Positions 28,109-38,521 of a DNA stretch of 64,000 nucleotides are shown here, in pieces; positions within the stretch are counted from its first letter, which is position 1, and every line of letters begins with the position of its first letter. The stretch spans positions 13,438-77,437 of the forward strand of contig JAOHMI010000002.1 in assembly GCA_028101965.1 (NCBI GenBank). The letters run 5' to 3'. Position numbers and translations under genes: made by a program. The stretch is from Bacteriovoracaceae bacterium (lineage in GTDB: Bacteria > Bdellovibrionota > Bacteriovoracia > Bacteriovoracales > Bacteriovoracaceae). A model generated the notes under the pieces. The model ran no database searches. It was not told the DNA's origin and saw only the letters and a program-made list of their open reading frames with translations.

Positions 28109-29518
28109 TTAAAAATTAATTGAAGATTTAAATTTTAAATTACCTTTATCATAAGATTGTTTAAGCCCTTTTCTTAAGACCCAGAATAAATCTGATGTTT
28201 GAGAAAAGGGCTTCTTCATAAAGTTACCTAAGTCTCTTTTTAGCAAGCGAAATAAAACAATCCATTTGGGAAGATTTAACTCTATTACTAAATCTACAGG
28301 GGGAAGTAGATTTTTAATTAAATTGTAATTTCCTTCAATAATCCAGGATTGACTTTTTAGCTGTTTATTTAAAGATACCTTAAAGTTATCTTTCTCACTT
28401 TTCCCTTTTTGATTTTCTTCCCAGCGTAAATTATCAGTTTCTATATGGTGAAAACCTAAGTCTTGGAAAAGTTTTTTTGCAAGAGTGGATTTACCCGATC
28501 CTGGGTTTCCGAGAATTAATATTTTCTTATAATCCTTACTATGAATTGTATTTATTAGGTCATTATATTCTTGATTGGCCATTGATTTTTCATGCATAAG
28601 TGAAGCCAAACCAGAACGCACTCGCTGCATAAAATGCTCAAATCTTTTGGATCGAGATTCTAACCAGGATAATATTTTTTTGACTAAGGAGCTTCGTCTT
28701 AGAAAAAAAAGTAAAGTTAAGATGGCCATAGGGCGAAGGCATCGGATCATGACTTCATCCATACTTAACCCTTGAAAAGTGAGTAAAAGAACAAAGAAAA
28801 CCATTGTTAAGATAAAGAATGGGTTTAACAATTCTTTTACATAGGATTGAAAATGATTTGTGCATTTTTTATCTTTTAAGGGAAGATGTTTTCCTAATTT
28901 TTTAATTTTGGCATCGAGCTGACCCCACTTTTCTTCTGCCCACTTTTGAGTCGTGAAAAGAAGAATTATTCCAGTTATACATTTAAAAAAATAGACAGTA
29001 AGAATGAAAAAAATGATAAATTTTGGATCGATTCCAAATTTATTTATTTTTGTTTGGGCATAGTCTAATGCTGGAATGAAGTCTATGCCAAAAATTATTA
29101 AATAACTAAGAATTGGCTGAAAAAAAGCCCATAAAGACAATAATACCAGACCAATCCCATGACCTAATTTATTTCGACCAAAAATTATCACTCCTATTGT
29201 AAAAAGAAGACCCTGCATGAACAAGCTGATCATTGGCCCGAGTCGTTTTCCACCTGGGCTGAGGGTTTTAAAGAAAGCAACTAAAGCTGAGACTTCTAAG
29301 CAAGCTTTTGTTGCTTCGATGCGGGTCTCTTCTGCATATGATAATCTACTTAAGTAAATAGCTTGATTAAGTGAAAGCATATGCCCTGTAAATGGAAATT
29401 TTAAACTGTGAAGAAGGCTGCCTAAGACAATTTCAATAAGGGATAAATGGACTGCACTGTTTAAGCGTAAGTCAACATTCGTATTAGTTAAATTGTTTAA
29501 AGATAAATTATTTTCCAT
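28109..29518 (-). CDS. Fusion of a polytopic membrane domain to a C-terminal adenylate-kinase-like P-loop domain
   Basis: About 300 N-terminal residues are hydrophobic. The C-terminal KKILILGNPGSGKSTLAKKL...IIEGNY resembles small NMP-kinase / topology-modulation-like proteins. Confidence 0.6.
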   Translation of the reverse strand: MENNLSLNNLTNTNVDLRLNSAVHLSLIEIVLGSLLHSLKFPFTGHMLSLNQAIYLSRLSYAEETRIEATKACLEVSALVAFFKTLSPGGKRLGPMISLFMQGLLFTIGVIIFGRNKLGHGIGLVLLSLWAFFQPILSYLIIFGIDFIPALDYAQTKINKFGIDPKFIIFFILTVYFFKCITGIILLFTTQKWAEEKWGQLDAKIKKLGKHLPLKDKKCTNHFQSYVKELLNPFFILTMVFFVLLLTFQGLSMDEVMIRCLRPMAILTLLFFLRRSSLVKKILSWLESRSKRFEHFMQRVRSGLASLMHEKSMANQEYNDLINTIHSKDYKKILILGNPGSGKSTLAKKLFQDLGFHHIETDNLRWEENQKGKSEKDNFKVSLNKQLKSQSWIIEGNYNLIKNLLPPVDLVIELNLPKWIVLFRLLKRDLGNFMKKPFSQTSDLFWVLRKGLKQSYDKGNLKFKSSINF

Positions 29519-30062: not shown

Positions 30063-30410
30063 TTAGGCAAACCTTAATCCACAGTCAGGGCATTCAGAGA
30101 ATTGTGAAGGGTTAAAGTAAGTTGAACAAGCAGGGCACTGAGTGTTCTCTTGATTAGGGTCAAAAGTTGCATTTAAAGCATCAAAGTCGATACTCAGTCC
30201 ATCATAGTCTTTGGCATGATAGGATTTTAGAAATGGTATGGCCGTTTCAATTTCATTTTGGGGAAGTCTTAATTCAATGGTGACTCCGCAACCTGTTCGG
30301 CAAGTTTGCCCATCATGATTGAGAACTGGGCTCAAACCTTGTTCCTCAAGTTTCTTCTCAAGTGTTTTTGCTTCAGCATGGGGGAATACTCCAATGATGA
30401 CTGTTTCCAT
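30063..30410 (-). CDS. Small protein with a C-terminal zinc ribbon
   Basis: CPACSTYFNPSQFSECPDCGLRF (CxxC...CxxC). Confidence 0.45.
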   Translation of the reverse strand: METVIIGVFPHAEAKTLEKKLEEQGLSPVLNHDGQTCRTGCGVTIELRLPQNEIETAIPFLKSYHAKDYDGLSIDFDALNATFDPNQENTQCPACSTYFNPSQFSECPDCGLRFA

Positions 30411-30595: not shown

Positions 30596-30700
30596 ATGAA
30601 TCAATTCGGCCTTTTGCAGGATCTGGTAAGATTTATTTCAGCAATTTCTTTTATTTTGTTTCTCATGACTTTAAGTTTTATCCTTTATAGCATTATCTGA
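30596..30700 (+). CDS. Candidate 34-aa hydrophobic micro-protein
   Basis: AAGGAG lies 7 nt upstream of the ATG. It encodes MNQFGLLQDLVRFISAISFILFLMTLSFILYSII. It is too short for the ORF track and is supported only by the RBS and one TM-like segment. Confidence 0.25.
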   Translation: MNQFGLLQDLVRFISAISFILFLMTLSFILYSII

Positions 30701-30885: not shown

Positions 30886-31611
30886 GTGAAAGGATATTTC
30901 AATCCGCTAATTTCGCCTATTTTTCAGATAATCTTAATCCTAAGTTTTGGAGCATCATGTACTCGCATGATTAAGGTAGAGAAAAAATCAAAGGGCAAAG
31001 ATCGTATTATAACTAATACGAATACTACAACCACAACACCAGCGAATACTTTTGAATTAGTTTTTGCTGATGAAACGGTTAATAGCGGCAATATCTCTTA
31101 TGATGCAAATTTAGAAATTTTATCCATTTACACGTTTGGTGGAGTTAACGCTGCCGGAGCATTCCAGGGTGGTGGAACAGGAAATAAACCCATTGCCGCT
31201 TTGGATGGCTTTCATAATATGCATCTTTCTGATTTCTCATTAGACTTTGATTATGACCAAGCACAGACGGCCCCTTTTGTTAATATACTAATTGATATTG
31301 ATAGTGATGGTACCGCAGATAATATTGTTGTACCGACTGATCCATCGGGAGGATCATTCTCATTTGATGGTTCTACTGATTCTTTTCGAGTTGTGTGTGT
31401 ACCAACTTGTGGAACCTATAACTCTTTCTCTTATGACTTAACAGATTATCCGGATGCAACCATTGTTAATAGCACTATTACTGATGGGGGAATGCCAGCA
31501 GGTGCTGCCGCAACTGCAATTAACGGAGTTATCTTTTTTGTTGGCTCAGGCAGTAATGAAACGAGTGCCGTTTCAGGTGAAATATTTAATATAGAAACAA
31601 GCTTAGATTAA
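30886..31611 (+). CDS. Cassette copy 1, gene A: lipoprotein with a DxDxDG calcium-loop-like motif
   Basis: GTG start 5 nt after AGGAGG. Lipobox SFGASC. IDIDSDGTADN loop. Paralogue of 34347..35078. Confidence 0.65.
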   Translation: MKGYFNPLISPIFQIILILSFGASCTRMIKVEKKSKGKDRIITNTNTTTTTPANTFELVFADETVNSGNISYDANLEILSIYTFGGVNAAGAFQGGGTGNKPIAALDGFHNMHLSDFSLDFDYDQAQTAPFVNILIDIDSDGTADNIVVPTDPSGGSFSFDGSTDSFRVVCVPTCGTYNSFSYDLTDYPDATIVNSTITDGGMPAGAAATAINGVIFFVGSGSNETSAVSGEIFNIETSLD

Positions 31612-31635
31612 AATAAAATATTGGAAGGAATTTTT

Positions 31636-33909
31636 ATGAATTTATTTAAATACTTCACTCTTTGTTCTGTACTTTTTTCTTGTTCAAACTTATTTGCAAT
31701 AAGAAGCTATCTTTATGAGGATGATTGGGAGCCAGGAGTTGGGGTTTTGAGTGCGAATGCACAGTTGCAGGACTTTAGCTACGCGGGTTTCAAGAATAGT
31801 AGTGTTGAAACTCCTAAGTGGCAGGACTTTAATTTGCCTTTGTATCGAGTGAATGATTTTGGTGCTGATCCTACAGGAGTAGAGTATTCGGACGCTGCGA
31901 TTCAACTTGCCATTGATTCAGCGACAGCTAATGGTGGTGGAATTATTCTCTTTGGGTATGGATCTTATACGGTTAGTGAGAGTTTTAATATTACTGGATC
32001 TAATATTTTTATTGTCGGCTCAAGACATATTAATTCAAGTGAAAATAGTCAAAATGTAACTAAAATTTGGACTGATTATTGGTATAAAGAAGATGGTATC
32101 CCTGAGAATTTATCTCAAACCTATGGGACATTTAGATTTATAGGAAATCAGGAGTTTTCAAATCGTAAAAATTTAGCTGAAAATATTAGTCCTCACGATA
32201 TGTTTATTAAATTGGAGAGTGTGGATGGATTTAATATAGGAGATGATATTGCTATCGAACGAAATGAATTTGAAACTTGGATTGATGACTATGAAATGAA
32301 TGAATATTGGAGTGATCTGATTGGTGAAACTAAAAAAATGGAAAGCAGAACCATCGTTAATATAGATGTTCCTGCTCGGAAACTTTATTTAAATGCACCT
32401 GTTAGACATTTTATTAAATCAGGAGAAGGTAGTGTTAGTCTCGAAAGTGGATATTCCGAAAATGTTGGAATGTATAATATAAAATTTAATAATGCTCTTC
32501 ATGATGAAAATTACGTTAAAAAGATTGGTGGCAATCGAATGTCTTTTATTTATGTGAGAGATGTTAAGAATGCAGTCTTTGCAAATATATTTTCTTACGA
32601 TGCTTATCTTAATGATACTACCCACCATTTAGCCGATAGCTTTTTTTGGGCAGATAATTTAAAGGATTCAACTTTAACCAAGATTCGTGTTCAGAAAACT
32701 CAGCGTCGTATTGGTGGTGGAGCTGGTTATGGGATTAACTTAGATGAAGCATCAAATGTACTGATTCATGATGCGGATGTAACTTGGATGAGGCACAACT
32801 ATACATTTAATTATAATTCATTGGCCAAGGAAGGAAATGTTATAACTAAAAGTGTAAGTCGAAAAGCAAAAGCTAATCACTGTATAAATGAAGATGAAAT
32901 TACTGGCTGTATACTGTGGCCGACAAATGGAATTGATATTAAGGGAAGGGCAACAGTTTCAACTCTTATGACGGAAGTTACGGTGGATGATCGAATCAAG
33001 GGAATCAATAGAAAATCAGATTCATCTAATTCAGGAGATGCCGGTTGGGGGAACGTGGTATGGAATATAAATGGAGATGGAAAGGTTATATTTAAAGATA
33101 ATCAAAAATCTCTTACGGGTTATGGTTTTGTATATAGCTATGTTATTGCCTGGGCTCCAGGAATCAAAGTTAAAGGGGATAATAAAATAAGAGACCTAAA
33201 GAAAAAAGCATCAACCGTAGAGCCTCAGAATTTATTCTGTGATCAGTTAAGTAAAAGAGGAGCTGGAAGCTCTTGTGATGATATTCAGGTTGAGACAACA
33301 ACTGGATTAAGCCAAAATCAGACAGAATGCCATGAGTTGTTACAAGAAATTAACTATATTGAACAGACGATAGAAGGTTTACAAACTACTTTTGATGATA
33401 TGTTAAATGAACCTGAATACGAGTATGGATCCCCTCATGGTTTTGAAAATGTTTTGAATGGATTAGTTAGTCAAATTTCTCAAAATCAAAGTCAACTTGC
33501 AATTCTTCAATCTCAATTTAATGGTTATAATGAAGTTGGTTGTGTTTCGATAATGGATACAGGTCTTGCTGTTCCGATTAATGACGGTGTTGAAGAAGTG
33601 GCCATATCGGATAGAGAAAAAGAAAGGCTGTCCAAAGAGAAGATTAAAAGAGACAAAGCTTCTCAAGCTGAACTTGAAAAGTCAGGGATAAAGAAAATGG
33701 TCATGCAGCTGGATATTGCTGGGGAGAAACATGAAGTCCAAGTCACATTAAGAGGCGAGAAATCTTCACGGGTGAAAAGCCAAGAAGAGTTATTAAAAGA
33801 TCCTAGTTATCAAAAAATGATATCGAGCCTAAATCAAAAAATTGAGACGATCATTCAAAAAGATATTGCTGATGAAAGTGATTCGATTGGAGAGTTATCG
33901 ACTAAATAG
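31636..33909 (+). CDS. Cassette copy 1, gene B: secreted protein with a pectate-lyase-superfamily/tailspike-type N-terminal motif (right-handed beta-helix inferred) and a C-terminal coiled coil
   Basis: ORF 31621..33909, with an ATG at 31636 after GGAAGGA. Signal peptide. VNDFGADPTGVEYSDAAIQLAIDSATANGGGIILFGYGSYTV is the pectate-lyase-superfamily N-terminal motif. The C-terminus is heptad-like and Q/E/L-rich. Confidence 0.7.
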   Translation: MNLFKYFTLCSVLFSCSNLFAIRSYLYEDDWEPGVGVLSANAQLQDFSYAGFKNSSVETPKWQDFNLPLYRVNDFGADPTGVEYSDAAIQLAIDSATANGGGIILFGYGSYTVSESFNITGSNIFIVGSRHINSSENSQNVTKIWTDYWYKEDGIPENLSQTYGTFRFIGNQEFSNRKNLAENISPHDMFIKLESVDGFNIGDDIAIERNEFETWIDDYEMNEYWSDLIGETKKMESRTIVNIDVPARKLYLNAPVRHFIKSGEGSVSLESGYSENVGMYNIKFNNALHDENYVKKIGGNRMSFIYVRDVKNAVFANIFSYDAYLNDTTHHLADSFFWADNLKDSTLTKIRVQKTQRRIGGGAGYGINLDEASNVLIHDADVTWMRHNYTFNYNSLAKEGNVITKSVSRKAKANHCINEDEITGCILWPTNGIDIKGRATVSTLMTEVTVDDRIKGINRKSDSSNSGDAGWGNVVWNINGDGKVIFKDNQKSLTGYGFVYSYVIAWAPGIKVKGDNKIRDLKKKASTVEPQNLFCDQLSKRGAGSSCDDIQVETTTGLSQNQTECHELLQEINYIEQTIEGLQTTFDDMLNEPEYEYGSPHGFENVLNGLVSQISQNQSQLAILQSQFNGYNEVGCVSIMDTGLAVPINDGVEEVAISDREKERLSKEKIKRDKASQAELEKSGIKKMVMQLDIAGEKHEVQVTLRGEKSSRVKSQEELLKDPSYQKMISSLNQKIETIIQKDIADESDSIGELSTK

Positions 33910-34346
33910 ATCTATCTGCTTAGTTATAAACAACTATAAGTATCGAAAATTATTATACTTTCTGTTCGTAATAGCAGAGTGATTATTTTTGTGAAGCAGG
34001 AAAAGCTGACTTACTTCATTACAGTTCAATCCTTATAAATTGGCTGACTATAGTTGTGGTATCTTCTTAGTTACTGAAATACTTAGTTTTCAAAAGTTGT
34101 AATTAATTGAATTTTGATCGATCAGAAATATAGTAAACCAGTTAGCAATAATTAAATAACAAAATTTATTAAACCTTTGAAATTTAATTCAATAATATGG
34201 TTTTTACCATTATTTATGGCAGTCATTTGCTTCCAATGATTTAGTTAACAAGCTAATTTTATGTATTTTTCCTTTTTTTTTATCGAATTCGTCCGAATAG
34301 ACCTGATAATTAGAGCATATAATATTTTTTTATTTGGAGGACGTTT

Positions 34347-35078
34347 GTGCAAAAAAAATATTGGAACCATTATTGGTTTTTGGTCTCTTTTATTATTTCT
34401 TTAAATTTAATTTCATGTGGGAAACTTAATATTAATACTGAGGAAGAAATGGTTAAGAGTAAAGATAGAAGTGATTCTCTCGCGCAAACAAACAATACAA
34501 ATAATACTGAAGTCGCTTTTGAATATTTATTTGATGATGAATCAGTGAATAACTCTAGCATTAGTTTTGACGATGCTAGCGGAGTCTTAAGCCTAACTTG
34601 TTCTGGAGGTGTAAACGCCTCTGGTGGTTTTCAGGGGGGCGGAACAGGAAACAAACCCATTGCTGCCTTAGATGGTTTTAATGGTGTTGATCTAGGAGAC
34701 TTTTCTATATCTTGGGACTACGACCAAGGTCAAGATATTCCCTGGATGAATATCCTTATTGATAATGATGATGACGGTATTGCGGACAACATTATTGTTC
34801 CACTTTCAGCATCAGGTGGTTCCTTTTCTTTTTCAGGGGCAAGTGACTCTTTTAAAGTGGTTTGTGTCCCAACGTGTGGAACTTGGAGTAGCAATCAGTA
34901 TGACATCGACGATTATCCCAATGCGACCATTGTCGATAGTACTATCTCTGACGGTGGAATGCCTGCAGGGTCATTATCTACGAGCATCAATGGGGTGCTC
35001 TTCTCAATGGGGGGAGGAAGTTCAGAGACATCAGTTCTTTCAGCAGAAATTTCAAATTTAGAATCAAATTTAGATTAA
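34347..35078 (+). CDS. Cassette copy 2, gene A: lipoprotein with a DxDxDG calcium-loop-like motif
   Basis: GTG start 6 nt after GGAGG. Lipobox NLISCG. IDNDDDGIADN loop. It shares GGTGNKPIAALDGF, DSF(R/K)VVCVPTCGT and DGGMPAG with copy 1. Confidence 0.65.
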   Translation: MQKKYWNHYWFLVSFIISLNLISCGKLNINTEEEMVKSKDRSDSLAQTNNTNNTEVAFEYLFDDESVNNSSISFDDASGVLSLTCSGGVNASGGFQGGGTGNKPIAALDGFNGVDLGDFSISWDYDQGQDIPWMNILIDNDDDGIADNIIVPLSASGGSFSFSGASDSFKVVCVPTCGTWSSNQYDIDDYPNATIVDSTISDGGMPAGSLSTSINGVLFSMGGGSSETSVLSAEISNLESNLD

Positions 35079-35109
35079 CCATTTTCTTTAATTAAAAGGG
35101 GAGAAAGCG

Positions 35110-37344
35110 ATGAACGTATTAAGATTTATAAATGTTATTTGTTTTTTGAGCATGGTAAATGCCTACTCATTAAGATCAGTTTTGTATCCAGTGGACTGGA
35201 CGCTCGGCTTTAACCAAAATGGAGCGAAACTTCAAGATTATAGTTTTGCTGGATACAAAAATAGTAATGAATCGCTTCCAAATTGGGATTCATTTGGTCT
35301 GGTCAAGTTCAAAGTAGACGATTATGGAGGAGATCCTAGTGGACAAAGTTTCTCTGATGATGCCATTCATGAAGCCATCGCTGATGCTATTGCAAATAAT
35401 GGCGGGATTATCATGTTTAGTCCTGGAACCTATAAAATCAAAGATCAGTTTCAAATTAATAATTCTAATATATTCATTGTTGGAACCAAATCCGTAAGTG
35501 CTCCGAGCGATACGGAGAACTTCACTAATATAATTACTGATTATATTGGCCTTCCTGGTAATAAGCCTGAAAACTTATCTGGCTCCTATGGAACTTTTGT
35601 TTTTAATGGAGGGGGCGGACTTTCAAATAGTAAAAATTTAGCACAAAATATGGAAATTGATGACACTGAAATAAAGTTAAACAGCATTGATGGTTTTAGT
35701 GTCGGAGATGATATTGTCATCATTCGCAATGTTTCTAGTCAATGGGTTAATGACTGGGGAATGGGTAGTTATTGGGGGGATATGATTGGTGAAAATAAGG
35801 TTATTGAAAAGAGACATATTGTAAGTATTAATACCCCTGGTAAAAAATTAGTTTTAAATGCACCAACTCGGCATTTCTTGAAAGCGAGTGAAGGGTCAGT
35901 CAAAAAAGCGACAGCATTAATCGAGAATGTAGGTGTTTATAATATTAGATTTAATAATGCTCTTGCGACCATTGGAACAGCTGAAGAATTAGGTGGGAAT
36001 CGAATGGCTTTTATAAAAATAGCCAATGCCAAAAATGCGATCATCAGTAATATCATAACTTTTGATCGAGCAGGAGATTCTACAAATCGGCATATGGCAG
36101 ATAGTGGAATAATGTTTAGTAACGTTAAAGATTCAACCATAAGTAACGCAAATATATTTTCCACTCAAAATAGATTAGAAAATGGGCATGGTTACGGATT
36201 GAACTTAATTGCGACTTCCCACGTTCTGATTCACGGATCTGATATTGGACATAACCGCCACAATTATGTTTTTAATGGAAACAACTTAGATAAGGAAGGA
36301 AATGCAGTAGTCTCAAGCAAATCGAAAGCTTCATATGCTAAAAATTGTTCAGGAGATAATGGTAACGGAATCTGTGTCACTATTAAAGCTGCCGGAATAG
36401 ACTGTCATGGTAGTGCCTCGGTAGGGATGCTTTTTACTGATGTAACAGTTGATGACAAAATTGAGTGCAAAAATAGAAAACATTACTCTTCAAATGCAGG
36501 TCAAACCGGAACAAATATCACTATGTGGAATGCAAGAGGAGACGGGAAAGTTCGATTTAAGGGAATGGAGTTTCATCAAGATGGTCATGGATTTGTTCGC
36601 GGTTATATGATAGGGACTGGACCAGGTTTTGGTATGAAAGGGGACAGCGATTGGCGAGAGCATAAAGGTGATGCTTCCTCTCTACAACCGCAAAACTTAT
36701 TTTGCGATCAACTTGCAAGAAGGCTTACAGGTGGGAGCTGTGATTTACAACTACCGGTCCTAACTGGCTATACACCAAATCAGGAAGCTTGTATTGATCT
36801 TTTAAATGAAATTGGTAGTTTAAATAACAGTATCGCTCAAGTGCAACAGACGATTTATGATATTTTAGATCAAGACCCTGATGGACCTATTTTTGGAGGA
36901 GGATCTGGGGGAATAGTAATTACTAACTTACAAAACCAAATTGATAACTATAGAGACCAAAGAGATGATTTGCAAAATCAATATGATACTTTTAATGGTG
37001 TAGGATGCGAGTATATCATGATCAACGGTTTAGTTGGTCCAGGAGGTCCAGGAGGACCGGTAGATGATAAAGTAAATAGAGATCATCTTGTTGATTTAAA
37101 ATCAATCTCTGATGGAAAAGAGAGAATCATCATGGGCAGCCAGATGAAGGTGACTGAAGCAGAAAAAGCAAAACTTTCCTATTTCAACGACATGAAAGTT
37201 GAGGTAGATGGAACAATTGAGAGCATTGAAGTTTTAATTGAAAGTAAAGATCTAAAAACTGGAAAGTTTCTTGATTTAAGTCGTAATAAAAGCTTATCCA
37301 CGGACCCATCTGTTCAGAACTTAATTAAAGAGGCACTCAAATAA
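35110..37344 (+). CDS. Cassette copy 2, gene B: secreted protein with a pectate-lyase-superfamily/tailspike-type N-terminal motif (right-handed beta-helix inferred) and a C-terminal coiled coil
   Basis: GGGGAG RBS. Signal peptide. VDDYGGDPSGQSFSDDAIHEAIADAIANNGGIIMFSPGTYKI. It shares GGNRM.FI, HNY.FN and QPQNLFCDQL..R..GGSCD with copy 1. Confidence 0.7.
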   Translation: MNVLRFINVICFLSMVNAYSLRSVLYPVDWTLGFNQNGAKLQDYSFAGYKNSNESLPNWDSFGLVKFKVDDYGGDPSGQSFSDDAIHEAIADAIANNGGIIMFSPGTYKIKDQFQINNSNIFIVGTKSVSAPSDTENFTNIITDYIGLPGNKPENLSGSYGTFVFNGGGGLSNSKNLAQNMEIDDTEIKLNSIDGFSVGDDIVIIRNVSSQWVNDWGMGSYWGDMIGENKVIEKRHIVSINTPGKKLVLNAPTRHFLKASEGSVKKATALIENVGVYNIRFNNALATIGTAEELGGNRMAFIKIANAKNAIISNIITFDRAGDSTNRHMADSGIMFSNVKDSTISNANIFSTQNRLENGHGYGLNLIATSHVLIHGSDIGHNRHNYVFNGNNLDKEGNAVVSSKSKASYAKNCSGDNGNGICVTIKAAGIDCHGSASVGMLFTDVTVDDKIECKNRKHYSSNAGQTGTNITMWNARGDGKVRFKGMEFHQDGHGFVRGYMIGTGPGFGMKGDSDWREHKGDASSLQPQNLFCDQLARRLTGGSCDLQLPVLTGYTPNQEACIDLLNEIGSLNNSIAQVQQTIYDILDQDPDGPIFGGGSGGIVITNLQNQIDNYRDQRDDLQNQYDTFNGVGCEYIMINGLVGPGGPGGPVDDKVNRDHLVDLKSISDGKERIIMGSQMKVTEAEKAKLSYFNDMKVEVDGTIESIEVLIESKDLKTGKFLDLSRNKSLSTDPSVQNLIKEALK

Positions 37345-37356
37345 ACTGACCTAAAG

Positions 37357-37401
37357 CTTTGCTCAAGTGAACCAAGTTTTGTCCACTTGAGCAAAGTTTT
37401 T
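37357..37401 (+). terminator. Strong rho-independent terminator
   Basis: Perfect 13-bp stem CTTTGCTCAAGTG...CACTTGAGCAAAG followed by TTTTTGG, 13 nt after the stop at 37344. Confidence 0.85.
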
Positions 37402-37439
37402 GGGTCGTACTATTTATCGACGAAATTATAAGAAGAGAA

Positions 37440-37466
37440 TTACTAACTGCCCTACGAGTATGGTGG
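37440..37466. repeat. IS terminal inverted repeat (left)
   Basis: TTACTAACTGCCCTACGAGTATGGTGG. Confidence 0.75.
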
Positions 37467-37522
37467 TAAATAAAAAGTACAATCCGATTAATTGTGATCA
37501 TTTTTTTCATCAAGTTAATTTT

Positions 37523-38419
37523 CTAAATAAGAATTGTATTGTGGTAGTGGATAAAGAGATCAATGTGATTTTTAAGCATGACTGGATCTTTCGTTGTACA
37601 CCAAGACCTTCTAAATAATCTGTTGATGTTTGCCCTAAGCATGGCGTAAGAGTGGTTAATAGAAAAAAGAGGATCTCTTCTTTTTCTTTTTAACTCACCT
37701 TGACCTGTTACACAGCTTCTTCCTCCTTTGAACCTTAAATGCTTGGCATGGGGAAGGTGCTTATTTACAAAAAAGGGATAAAGTTTATGCTCATCTGATC
37801 TAATTTCAACTTGAGGGTCAAGTGAGGCTTTAATTTGATTAAATAAGTCTTCGAGTGCATTTTTATGGTTATTTTCTCTTCTTCCATACTTCTTTTTTGA
37901 TATTTTGGCTAAATGTCCAAAGGCAGGGATAGAGGCAACATGAGCTCCTAGTATCGCTCTTGAATTTGAATCAACTGCACAGCTAACGGTTAGTGGTTTT
38001 AGTTTTGTATGCTCAATTGTAATAAGATCATCAAATTGGATTCGGTTTAATCCTCTTATTTTCTTTAAGTATTCATCATGATGCATTCTAGCTTTTTTAG
38101 CTAAATAAATTAATTTTCTTTTAACGGTAATTTGATGAATATTTAAATTAAGGGCACATCTTCGCATAGACATACCTAAAGCCAGAAGTTTAAAAAGAAA
38201 AAAGTTAACTCTTCTTTTTTTTTGCCTGTATTCAAGCTCTCCGGTAGATTTGCTAAACCTCTTTCCACAATCTCTGCACCGATATCTCTGTACCTTACGA
38301 CTATCATTTTTTCTAAAATAATTACCATCTTTTTGAATATTACTTTCAATTTTAATGCACTTTAGATTTGGGCAGCCTTTAATCATATAAGCTATATTCA
38401 AATAATTTGCGAAAATCAA
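37523..38419 (-). CDS. Transposase with an N-terminal zinc ribbon, an HTH and a DDE-type core, IS1-family-like
   Basis: CPNLKC...QRYRCRDCGKRFS is a zinc ribbon like IS1 InsA. FDDLITIEH...AVDSNSRAILGAHV resembles the first catalytic Asp region. The ORF lies between the inverted repeats. Confidence 0.65.
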   Translation of the reverse strand: MIFANYLNIAYMIKGCPNLKCIKIESNIQKDGNYFRKNDSRKVQRYRCRDCGKRFSKSTGELEYRQKKRRVNFFLFKLLALGMSMRRCALNLNIHQITVKRKLIYLAKKARMHHDEYLKKIRGLNRIQFDDLITIEHTKLKPLTVSCAVDSNSRAILGAHVASIPAFGHLAKISKKKYGRRENNHKNALEDLFNQIKASLDPQVEIRSDEHKLYPFFVNKHLPHAKHLRFKGGRSCVTGQGELKRKRRDPLFSINHSYAMLRANINRLFRRSWCTTKDPVMLKNHIDLFIHYHNTILI

Positions 38420-38495
38420 TTGAATAGGTGGTTGAAAAAATTAAGAATAATTCAAATCTTTAGAAATATTTTTTTTATTAAGGAAATATTTAATT

Positions 38496-38521
38496 CACCA
38501 CTATAGTAGGGCAGTTAGTAA
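38496..38521. repeat. IS terminal inverted repeat (right)
   Basis: CACCACTATAGTAGGGCAGTTAGTAA. Its reverse complement is TTACTAACTGCCCTACTATAGTGGTG. Confidence 0.75.

What the first reader, a model, noticed from the sequence alone, without database searches (positions are those of the whole stretch)
30886..37344. Tandemly duplicated lipoprotein plus pectate-lyase/tailspike-motif two-gene cassettes of unknown function
Two adjacent copies of the same unit are present.

Gene A (241 and 243 aa):
- It has a lipobox.
- It has a GTG start behind a strong GGAGG-type RBS.

Gene B (757 and 744 aa):
- It follows gene A after a gap of 24 to 31 nt.
- It carries a signal peptide.

Conserved blocks in the A copies:
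- GGVNA.G.FQGGGTGNKPIAALDGF
- NILID.D.DG.ADNI.VP
- DSF(R/K)VVCVPTCGT
- DGGMPAG

Conserved blocks in the B copies:
- D(F/Y)G(A/G)DP(T/S)G...DAI..AI..A.ANGGGII.F..G.Y
- GGNRM.FI
- HNY.FN
- (E/Q)PQNLFCDQL..R..G.SCD

Elsewhere the copies differ. By eye, roughly half the positions are identical, but no alignment was computed. The duplication is therefore old and both copies are maintained.

The N-terminal motif of B is the signature of pectate-lyase-superfamily right-handed beta-helices. These are found in polysaccharide depolymerases and phage tailspikes. Here it is followed by a Cys-bracketed coiled coil and a divergent tail. A carries an EF-hand/thrombospondin-like DxDxDG loop and conserved Cys pairs. 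I do not recognise A as any named family.

A plausible model is a surface-anchored complex, with A as the lipid anchor or adaptor and B as the glycan-binding or glycan-cleaving spike. The two paralogous sets could have different specificities, for example toward prey envelope glycans.
Basis: partly seen in the sequence, partly recalled or inferred. Interest (0 to 1): 0.8.

Follow-up and report, generated by a model that had tools for sequence, protein, structure and literature searches.

The report
Duplicated lipoprotein plus beta-helix lyase pair
A marine predatory-type bacterium (Bacteriovoracaceae) carries two old tandem copies of a gene pair: a small lipoprotein from an unnamed family, followed by a secreted beta-helix enzyme distantly related to PL29 and phage capsule lyases. 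The enzyme is a divergent member of a known kind, the lipoprotein family is undescribed, and the pairing was found nowhere else.

Summary
A1/B1 (30886-33909) and A2/B2 (34347-37344) are true paralogous units: the A copies are 55% identical and the B copies 42%. The structured cores align without gaps, and third codon positions are near saturation.

B is a secreted right-handed beta-helix protein. It has a PF12708 N-cap, an inserted "rider"-like barrel, and conserved Tyr and Arg-His motifs that align with catalytic residues of phage K1 lyase. 24 of the 28 aligned family members (26 relatives plus B1 and B2) match NCBIfam BT3328 (PL29 hyaluronan/chondroitin endo-lyase). B is therefore most likely a polysaccharide lyase, not a tailspike. 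Its C-terminal ~210 aa (Cys-stapled helical hairpin plus tail) is absent from the 26 aligned relatives.

A is a lipoprotein with a confidently modelled beta-jelly-roll. It has no Pfam or NCBIfam match. An exhaustive profile search found about 80 remote relatives, which are lipoproteins of Myxococcota-like MAGs and C-terminal domains of large proteins on viral contigs. Fold matches to carbohydrate-binding modules are weak.

The pairing is not conserved. None of 32 A-like loci holds a B-like gene, and none of 6 B-like loci holds an A-like gene. An A:B complex is therefore inference only. The closest analogue is the Bacteroides PL29 lyase with its adjacent glycan-binding lipoproteins. Interest is moderate.

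The parts
30886..31611 (+). A1: 241-aa lipoprotein. Signal peptide with lipobox Cys25, a Thr/Asn-rich linker at 26-55, and a beta-jelly-roll at 56-241.
   Evidence: ORF. GGAGG plus GTG start. AF2 core pLDDT above 90. Family profile hit at 3.4e-57.
31636..33909 (+). B1: 757-aa secreted beta-helix protein. Signal peptide 1-21. N-terminal QDFSYAGF motif. PF12708 cap 67-145. Inserted barrel at about 146-275. Beta-helix core to about 545 with Y365, R386-H387 and K436. Helical hairpin 560-631 stapled by C565 and C636. Poorly modelled tail 641-757.
33910..34346 (.). 437-bp AT-rich spacer between the two units. It has no similarity to the A1 upstream region. Only a weak hairpin follows the B1 stop.
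   Evidence: One search gives -18.2 kcal/mol, z -2.85.
34347..35078 (+). A2: 243-aa lipoprotein paralogue of A1 with lipobox LIS-C24. It is 55% identical overall and 63% in the core.
35110..37344 (+). B2: 744-aa paralogue of B1 (42% identity). It keeps the family His at the position where B1 has Lys. NCBI record MDA8791768.1 names it 'GH55 family protein'.
37349..37405 (+). Strong hairpin followed by a U-run just after the B2 stop. It is a likely intrinsic terminator of the cassette.
   Evidence: I5. One search gives -29.2 kcal/mol, z -6.8.
37440..38521 (-). IS1-like insertion sequence flanking the cassette. It has 26-nt terminal inverted repeats and a 298-aa transposase. It is context, not part of the system.
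   Evidence: I6. One search gives NF033558 at E 2.9e-9..

Best explanation
Each unit is a likely bicistronic operon (inferred from spacing) encoding two exported proteins.

B is a Sec-secreted, disulfide-bonded right-handed beta-helix enzyme. It belongs to a divergent branch of the PL29/BT3328-like clade. That clade shares with phage K1-type capsule lyases the N-cap, the inserted "rider" barrel and a Tyr / Arg-His / His / Arg set of groove residues. B most likely cleaves an acidic, uronic-acid-containing polysaccharide such as capsule, EPS or algal/host glycan by beta-elimination.

A is a Lol-sorted lipoprotein whose roughly 185-aa jelly-roll domain most likely binds a ligand, probably glycan, at the envelope. 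It may present substrate to B or hold B at the surface. This would resemble the way SGBP lipoproteins work with the surface PL29 lyase in Bacteroides.

The B-specific C-terminal hairpin and tail is the most plausible docking or oligomerisation element. The two diverged units would give two specificities.

Shown here: the paralogy, the export signals, the beta-helix and jelly-roll folds, and family membership at superfamily level.

Inferred: lyase chemistry, glycan binding by A, any A-B contact, and the substrate.
For: Paralogy and constraint:
-.

B fold:
- The AF2 model has pLDDT 76 and pTM 0.71.
- Foldseek top hits are phage polysaccharide lyases/depolymerases 9k4a, 4ru5, 7w1c and 4ru4, at E 1e-14 to 1e-11.

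B family:
- 28 distant homologues at 23-27% identity cover residues 1-545.
- 27 of the 28 aligned family members (26 relatives plus B1 and B2) match PF12708. Some relatives also carry DUF4955, CBM96 or CBM6/35.
- 24 of those 28 match NCBIfam BT_3328_fam, best E 1.7e-72. B2 itself matches at E 9.7e-4.
- The core-only profile hits the K1-specific depolymerase 9k4a across the rider and helix regions, E 6.7e-5.
- hhalign against K1 lyase and the column print place B1 Y365 on catalytic Tyr311.
- They place the RH(N) motif on R333-H334.
- They place the family "SDxHH" on His373.
- They place "DDxxxxNR" near Arg397. The K1 catalytic residues come from PMC8822698.
- Relatives sit beside GH5, sulfatase, glycosyltransferase and LacI genes.

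A:
- The AF2 core has pLDDT above 90 and is a beta-sandwich.
- The best fold matches are CBM11, CBM86, the xanthanase CBM, SGBP-B and the BoNT Hc lectin-like domain.
- The domain also forms the C-terminus of 717-802-aa proteins on viral contigs.

Analogy:
- BT3328 (PL29) is surface-located, is encoded next to the SGBP lipoproteins BT3329 and BT3330, and co-immunoprecipitates with them (PMC6994673).
Against: - A-like and B-like genes never co-occur elsewhere: 0 of 32 and 0 of 6 loci.
- The fold matches for A are weak (E about 1e-3, TM 0.2-0.4), so glycan binding is a guess.
- The catalytic alignment to K1 lyase has low confidence (hhalign probability 11%).
- B1 has Lys where the family and B2 have His. 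Both B copies lack the family's conserved "EG" near the C-terminus of the domain.
- B1 itself does not reach E 0.001 against BT_3328_fam.
- The 64-kb window contains no uronate-metabolism, transporter or other glycan genes.
- No biochemical data exist for any close relative.
Confidence: 0.5

Rival explanations
1. B is a glycoside hydrolase, as the NCBI name 'GH55 family protein' implies, or another non-lyase beta-helix enzyme such as an epimerase. It would not be a polysaccharide lyase.
For: - The strongest sequence matches to solved structures are the N-cap of AlgE C5-epimerases (E 2e-18) and of GH55, GH28, GH87 and GH110 hydrolases.
- NCBIfam gives weak rhamnogalacturonidase hits.
- NCBI annotates B2 as GH55.
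Against: - Those matches cover only residues of about 60-140, the cap shared by many beta-helix families.
- Beyond the cap, the only sequence hit is a K1-specific lyase-type depolymerase.
- The family as a whole matches the PL29 model.
- The invariant residues are Tyr, His and Arg rather than the Asp/Glu clusters typical of GH28 or GH55.
Confidence: 0.2
2. A and B are functionally independent neighbours. A segmental duplication copied both genes, and each is kept for its own reason. A has a role unrelated to glycans or to B.
For: - No co-occurrence was found in 38 related loci.
- The closest A relative, from another Bacteriovoracaceae MAG, stands alone beside unrelated genes.
- No conserved neighbour of A-like genes exists at all.
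Against: - Both units keep the same order and the same 24-31-nt spacing with individual ribosome-binding sites.
- There is no internal terminator between A and B.
- Both genes are retained intact in both copies despite saturation of silent sites.
Confidence: 0.25
3. The cassette is a remnant or domesticated piece of phage receptor-binding machinery (depolymerase tailspike plus fibre-tip domain) brought in by mobile DNA.
For: - B's best fold matches are phage depolymerases.
- The A domain occurs on IMG/VR viral contigs, once next to an SU10-type capsid gene.
- An IS1-like element abuts the cassette.
Against: - Both proteins carry cellular export signals (lipobox, signal peptidase I type).
- No phage genes lie in the window.
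- GC content is uniform across the region.
- PHROG hits for B cover only the N-cap, and A has none.
- B's sequence relatives are cellular CAZyme-like proteins with CBMs.
- No virion-attachment domain is present.
Confidence: 0.05

Closest known systems
PL29 family: Bacteroides thetaiotaomicron BT3328 surface hyaluronan/chondroitin endo-lyase, with its adjacent SGBP lipoproteins BT3329 and BT3330
   Same: - The beta-helix catalytic domain is of the same superfamily. 24 of the 28 aligned B-family members (26 relatives plus B1 and B2) match the BT_3328_fam model, and B2 aligns to model positions 320-505.
- The lyase gene lies next to a gene for an envelope lipoprotein.
- In Bacteroides the lipoproteins bind the glycan and co-immunoprecipitate with the lyase (PMC6994673).
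   Different: - B1 and B2 score far below the family cut-off: 17 bits against 1100.
- They lack the roughly 300-aa N-terminal spacer of BT3328.
- They add a unique C-terminal hairpin and tail.
- B is not itself a lipoprotein.
- No SusC/D, sulfatase or GH88 genes are nearby.
- A is a 241-aa single jelly-roll, and no homology to BT3329 or BT3330 has been shown.
- The host is a Bdellovibrionota MAG, not Bacteroidota.
Phage K1-type capsule lyases (NTUH-K2044-K1-1 ORF34, PDB 7w1c; K64-1 S2-4, PDB 9k4a) and LKA1 gp49 / phi297 gp61
   Same: - They share a right-handed beta-helix with a beta-barrel inserted early in the helix (the "rider").
- They are the best fold matches.
- A sequence-profile match runs across the rider and core regions.
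- Tyr311 and the RH motif align with invariant B-family residues.
   Different: - B has no N-terminal virion-binding domain and no C-terminal beta-sandwich.
- B carries a signal peptide.
- A trimeric state for B is not indicated.
- Identity is about 10-15%.
Carbohydrate-binding jelly-roll modules (CBM11, CBM86, SGBP-B) and phage fibre-tip domains, as comparators for A
   Same: - The beta-sandwich/jelly-roll fold is of similar size.
- There is a possible structural metal loop (D-x-D-x-DG).
- Related domains sit at the distal end of large viral proteins.
   Different: - There is no sequence similarity, and fold scores are only marginal.
- The conserved motifs are not those of any described CBM: DHSVN, FNGGGTGNKAI, AYPxA...DGGMP.

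Membership tests
Pectate-lyase-superfamily right-handed beta-helix (Pfam PF12708 N-cap) | Match to PF12708 above the gathering score | tested here: met
   B1 scores 29.3 bits against a cut-off of 27. B2 falls below threshold on its own. 27 of the 28 aligned family members (26 relatives plus B1 and B2) match.
Pectate-lyase-superfamily right-handed beta-helix (Pfam PF12708 N-cap) | Parallel beta-helix fold | tested here: met
   The AF2 model gives Foldseek probability 1.0 to many beta-helix enzymes.
PL29 (BT3328 family endo-lyase) | Sequence match to NF058554 at or above its cut-off of 1100 bits | tested here: not met
   B2 scores 17.4 bits (E 9.7e-4). B1 is not reported. The link is only transitive, through relatives that match at up to 1.7e-72.
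PL29 (BT3328 family endo-lyase) | Beta-elimination activity on uronic-acid polysaccharides | not testable with these tools
   This needs purified protein and an A235 or product assay.
K1-lyase-type phage depolymerase | Catalytic Tyr, His and Arg in the groove (Y311, H373, R397; PMC8822698) | tested here: inconclusive
   The Tyr is conserved (B1 Y365). The His position is His in B2 and Lys in B1. The Arg is offset by 2 residues. The alignment has low confidence, with hhalign E 0.0026 and probability 11%.
K1-lyase-type phage depolymerase | Virion-attachment N-domain and trimeric tailspike architecture | tested here: not met
   The N-terminus is a signal peptide followed directly by the family motif. 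PHROG hits cover the cap only.
Bacterial lipoprotein (A) | Signal peptide ending in a lipobox Cys | tested here: met
   A1 has ...SFGAS-C25 and A2 has ...LNLIS-C24. The Cys is conserved in many family members. The test is by sequence reading only.
Bacteroidetes SGBP (BT3329/BT3330-like) | Homology to BT3329/BT3330, or demonstrated glycan binding | not testable with these tools
   The reference sequences could not be fetched. The architecture differs, since A lacks the roughly 300-aa shared spacer described in PMC6994673.
Conserved two-gene A+B system | Co-occurrence of A-like and B-like genes in other genomes | tested here: not met
   0 of 32 A-like loci and 0 of 6 B-like loci show the partner.

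The most novel reading that the evidence does not exclude
The A domain is a previously undescribed receptor- or glycan-binding module shared between envelope lipoproteins of predatory bacteria (Bdellovibrionota, Myxococcota) and the tips of phage fibre-like proteins.

In this Bacteriovoracaceae it docks, through B's unique Cys-stapled hairpin and tail, with a PL29-like lyase. Together they form a predator-surface depolymerase complex that cuts through prey capsule or EPS. The two diverged sets would target different prey glycans.

This would be a first molecular answer to how BALOs traverse capsules. A recent review (PMC11721376) describes capsule penetration without naming any enzyme.
Probability: 0.1. 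Interest if true: 0.75.

Novelty: new variant of a known kind. Interest (0 to 1): 0.42.

Why it matters
- If B is an active lyase, it extends the PL29-like clade into predatory Bdellovibrionota with a new C-terminal architecture. Only one founding PL29 enzyme has been characterised.
- A defines an unannotated jelly-roll family of about 80 representatives in 1.8 billion proteins. It is found in predator-type lipoproteins and in viral proteins, and it has a confident model but no known function.
- Together they offer a compact, testable candidate for how a BALO handles extracellular or prey polysaccharides.
- If the pair is not functionally linked, what remains is an ordinary divergent CAZyme next to a hypothetical lipoprotein.

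Tried and rejected
- Searches for A with Pfam, NCBIfam, PHROGs and PDB sequences all came back empty.
- A word-indexed homologue search for A found only A1 and A2. The exhaustive profile search was needed to find relatives.
- Foldseek of A against PDB and BFVD gave only marginal, heterogeneous jelly-roll hits.
- A search for relatives of B's C-terminal 210 aa returned nothing, not even the parent protein, so it is uninformative. Pfam gives only noise for this region.
- A profile-profile test for a beta-helix related to B inside the viral A-domain proteins was negative.
- tblastn of a viral A-domain protein against cultured phages found no match.
- PHROG and Pfam annotation of the viral neighbourhoods was mostly empty.
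- No conserved neighbour of A-like genes was found.
- Look-ups of the MAG's own contig by exact protein failed.
- The PL29 founding paper (PMC6240882) is not held, so PL29 catalytic residues could not be compared.
- I considered A as a GDSL-like enzyme and rejected it, because the family \"GDS\" motif is not conserved in A1 or A2.
- I considered a prophage origin and rejected it. The reasons are given under the rival explanations.
Full report
**1. Observation**

The window is about 35% GC throughout. Exact protein matches identify it as a 104-kb contig of an NCBI MAG named "Bacteriovoracaceae bacterium", locus tags N9N67_00895 onward.

- A1 is 30886-31611: 241 aa, GTG start 7 nt after GGAGG.
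- B1 is 31636-33909: 757 aa.
- A2 is 34347-35078: 243 aa, GTG start after GGAGG.
- B2 is 35110-37344: 744 aa.
- The A-B gaps are 24 and 31 nt, and each B has its own ribosome-binding site.

Paralogy is clear:
- A1/A2 are 55% identical (E 2e-74) and B1/B2 are 42% identical (E 0).
- At DNA level only two coding patches remain detectable, at 65-69% identity. The 437-bp spacer and the upstream regions are unrelated.
- The structured parts align without a single gap. These are A residues 56-241 at 63% identity and B residues 67-545 at 44-52%.
- B's C-terminal hairpin is 36% identical and its tail 20%.
- Identity at codon positions 1/2/3 is 0.70/0.71/0.42 for A and 0.57/0.63/0.40 for B.
- The duplication is therefore old, silent sites are near saturation, and all four genes are under purifying selection.
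- No other family member lies in the window.

A strong hairpin with a U-tract follows B2 (-29.2 kcal/mol, z -6.8). Only a weak structure follows B1.

**2. What B is**

*Sequence level*
- B1 passes Pfam PF12708 (29.3 bits against a cut-off of 27) over residues 72-134.
- PDB sequence hits for B1 alone cover only this cap, in AlgE epimerases.
- A database search found 28 distant homologues at 23-27% identity. They cover residues 1 to about 545 and end at the shared motif "LxPxSLYxDQLxRRL".
- Residues 546-757 of B1 and B2 are therefore an addition that the 26 aligned relatives lack.

*Family context*
- The relatives carry CBM96, CBM6, CBM35, PKD or DUF4955 modules.
- They sit next to GH5, sulfatase, glycosyltransferase or LacI genes. 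The family is carbohydrate-active.
- 24 of the 28 aligned family members (26 relatives plus B1 and B2) match NCBIfam NF058554, "BT3328 family hyaluronic acid endo-lyase", with best E 1.7e-72. B2 itself gives E 9.7e-4, aligning to model positions 320-505.
- BT3328 is the founding PL29 enzyme. It is a surface endo-lyase acting by beta-elimination on chondroitin sulfate and hyaluronan (PMC9067506, PMC6994673).

*Structure*
- The AF2 model of B1 (pLDDT 76, pTM 0.71) is a right-handed beta-helix.
- Foldseek ranks phage polysaccharide lyases/depolymerases first: 9k4a, 4ru5, 7w1c (K1 lyase) and 4ru4, at E 1e-14 to 1e-11. AlgE epimerases follow, then GH28 and GH110.
- A profile of the core alone (B1 residues 140-545) still finds the K1-specific depolymerase 9k4a, at E 6.7e-5. 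The match spans the inserted barrel ("rider" domain) and the following rungs.

*Candidate catalytic residues*

I fetched the K1 lyase sequence from AB716666 ORF34. Its catalytic residues are Tyr311, His373 and Arg397 (PMC8822698). hhalign (E 0.0026 but probability only 11%) and the family column print give these correspondences:
- K1 "GWY311GVEV" aligns with the family "GGxGYxFxL", where B1 has Y365.
- K1 "VR333H334AISLNW" aligns with the family "GRHNFxxNW", where B1 has R386 and H387. Both are invariant.
- K1 "GFDTH373D" aligns with the family "SDxHH". B2 has "GIDCHG" and B1 has "GIDIKG", so B1 carries Lys at this position.
- K1 "DDGFQAR397" aligns with the family "DDGWxxxNR", with the Arg offset by two residues.

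The pattern of invariant Tyr, His and Arg, with no conserved acidic cluster, favours lyase chemistry. This is an inference from weak alignments.

*Export and the C-terminal extension*
- Three Cys pairs are conserved between B1 and B2: 416/425, 535/547 and 565/636.
- The last pair brackets the predicted antiparallel helical hairpin at 560-631.
- Together with the signal peptides, this indicates an exported, oxidised protein.
- The tail (641-757) is poorly modelled and has no family match.
- The homologue search with the C-terminal region failed even to find its parent protein, so it says nothing.

*Phage origin*
- PHROG tail-spike hits are confined to the cap.
- There is no virion-binding domain. 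B is not a tailspike.
- The NCBI label "GH55 family protein" for B2 also rests on the cap only.

**3. What A is**

*Sequence level*
- A has no Pfam, NCBIfam, PHROG or PDB sequence match.
- The word-indexed search found only A1 and A2.
- An exhaustive HMM search of 1.84 billion representatives with the A1+A2 profile found 81 proteins at E ≤ 1e-3, of which 9 are at E ≤ 1e-10.
- Most are 240-300 aa long.
- Shared motifs are D(H/L)SVNxA, N-x-AG-x-FNGGGTGNKAI-x-G, Y-x-N-x-x-VDL-x-CDG, AYPxA-x-x-x-DA-x-x-x-DGGMP-x-G and (often) GDS.
- None of the relatives has a Pfam domain for this region or a source name other than "hypothetical protein".

*Two sub-classes appear*
- The first is lipoproteins with a Cys after a hydrophobic N-terminus. 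They occur in another Bacteriovoracaceae MAG and in high-GC Myxococcota-type MAGs.
- The second is forms without a signal peptide. These include 717- and 802-aa proteins that carry the domain at their C-terminus.
- Five such loci lie on IMG/VR viral contigs. One lies about 650 bp downstream of an SU10-type major capsid gene.
- None matches cultured phages.

*Structure*
- The AF2 model of A1 is confident in the core (pLDDT above 90 over residues 60-240) and is a beta-sandwich/jelly-roll.
- Foldseek gives only marginal hits (E about 1e-3, TM 0.2-0.4). These are to CBM11, CBM86, a xanthanase CBM, SGBP-B, botulinum Hc lectin-like domains, PL7/GH11/GH16 jelly-rolls, and assorted phage tail proteins.
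- I read A as a ligand-binding, probably glycan-binding, lipoprotein, with low-to-moderate confidence.

- The "DxDxDG" loop is only partly conserved in the family.
- The CxxxC pair is restricted to the three closest members.

**4. Is the pair a system?**

- From the A side, I examined 9 genome loci and 23 metagenome loci. None has a B-family ORF by tblastn or by family HMM at E ≤ 1.
- No other conserved neighbour exists.
- The closest A relative (37-44% identity, another Bacteriovoracaceae) stands alone.
- From the B side, six loci of the nearest B relatives have no A-family ORF even at E ≤ 10.
- The association is therefore specific to this lineage as far as sampled.
- What still argues for a local functional link is the tight, ribosome-binding-site-equipped A-to-B spacing, and the retention of both genes in both copies through a long divergence.
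- The flanks are housekeeping genes: MFS, Ppx/GppA, BipA and the cox operon. An IS1-like element (37440-38521, 26-nt inverted repeats) lies immediately downstream. This is not a PUL.

**5. Mechanism and comparison**

- Best reading (confidence about 0.5 as a whole): B is a secreted PL29-like polysaccharide lyase and A is an envelope lipoprotein that binds ligand.
- The closest known arrangement is bt3328 (PL29) next to bt3329 and bt3330. Their lipoprotein products bind the substrate and co-immunoprecipitate with the lyase at the cell surface (PMC6994673).
- The differences from that arrangement are large and are listed under "closest known".
- Confidence by step is as follows:

| Claim | Confidence |
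|---|---|
| B is a beta-helix carbohydrate-active protein | about 0.9 |
| B uses lyase rather than hydrolase chemistry | about 0.6 |
| A binds glycan | about 0.35 |
| A and B make physical contact | about 0.2 |

- The prey-glycan idea is untested. It is of interest because how BALOs pass capsules has no assigned enzyme (PMC11721376).

**6. Verdict**

The finding is a real, old tandem duplication. B is a divergent new member of a known enzyme kind with a novel C-terminal extension. A belongs to an undescribed family with a confident fold. The pairing is unique to this locus and unproven as a system. I rate it as a new variant of a known kind, with moderate interest.

Noticed in passing
window 37440-38521: An IS1-like insertion sequence sits between the cassette terminator and the cytochrome oxidase operon. 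It has 26-nt terminal inverted repeats at 37440-37465 and 38496-38521. Its 298-aa transposase (37523-38419, minus strand) has an N-terminal zinc ribbon.
   Followed up: partly
window 30596-30700 (+): A 34-aa hydrophobic small ORF (MNQFGLLQDLVRFISAISFILFLMTLSFILYSII) lies behind an AAAGGAG ribosome-binding site, about 185 nt upstream of A1. It could be a small membrane peptide or a chance ORF.
   Followed up: no
L035-L039 (IMG/VR contigs); proteins P0059 and P0083: The A-type jelly-roll domain forms the C-terminus of 717-802-aa proteins on viral contigs. In L039 the gene follows an SU10-type major capsid gene. This suggests a fibre-tip or receptor-binding use of the domain in uncultured phages.
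   Followed up: partly
window 30063-30410 (-): A 115-aa protein matches the NCBIfam 'zinc ribbon-containing (seleno)protein DG' model at E 1e-19. It covers only the C-terminal part of the model.
   Followed up: no
L005, L006, L011: MAGs labelled 'uncultured Enterobacterales bacterium' that carry A-like lipoprotein genes have 69-73% GC. The taxonomic label looks wrong, and they resemble Myxococcota-type genomes.
   Followed up: no
window 35110-37344: The NCBI record MDA8791768.1 names B2 'glycoside hydrolase family 55 protein'. The evidence here shows only the shared N-cap supports that name, and the family is closer to PL29 lyases.
   Followed up: yes
window 28109-29518 (-): A 469-aa protein combines a multi-pass membrane N-terminal half with a C-terminal P-loop kinase-like domain (matched as 'DNA topology modulation protein', E 5e-19). 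This is an unusual fusion.
   Followed up: no
tool behaviour: The word-indexed homologue search with B1 did not return B2, which is 42% identical and present in the collection. The search with B1's C-terminus did not return B1 itself. Negatives from that tool are weak.
   Followed up: yes
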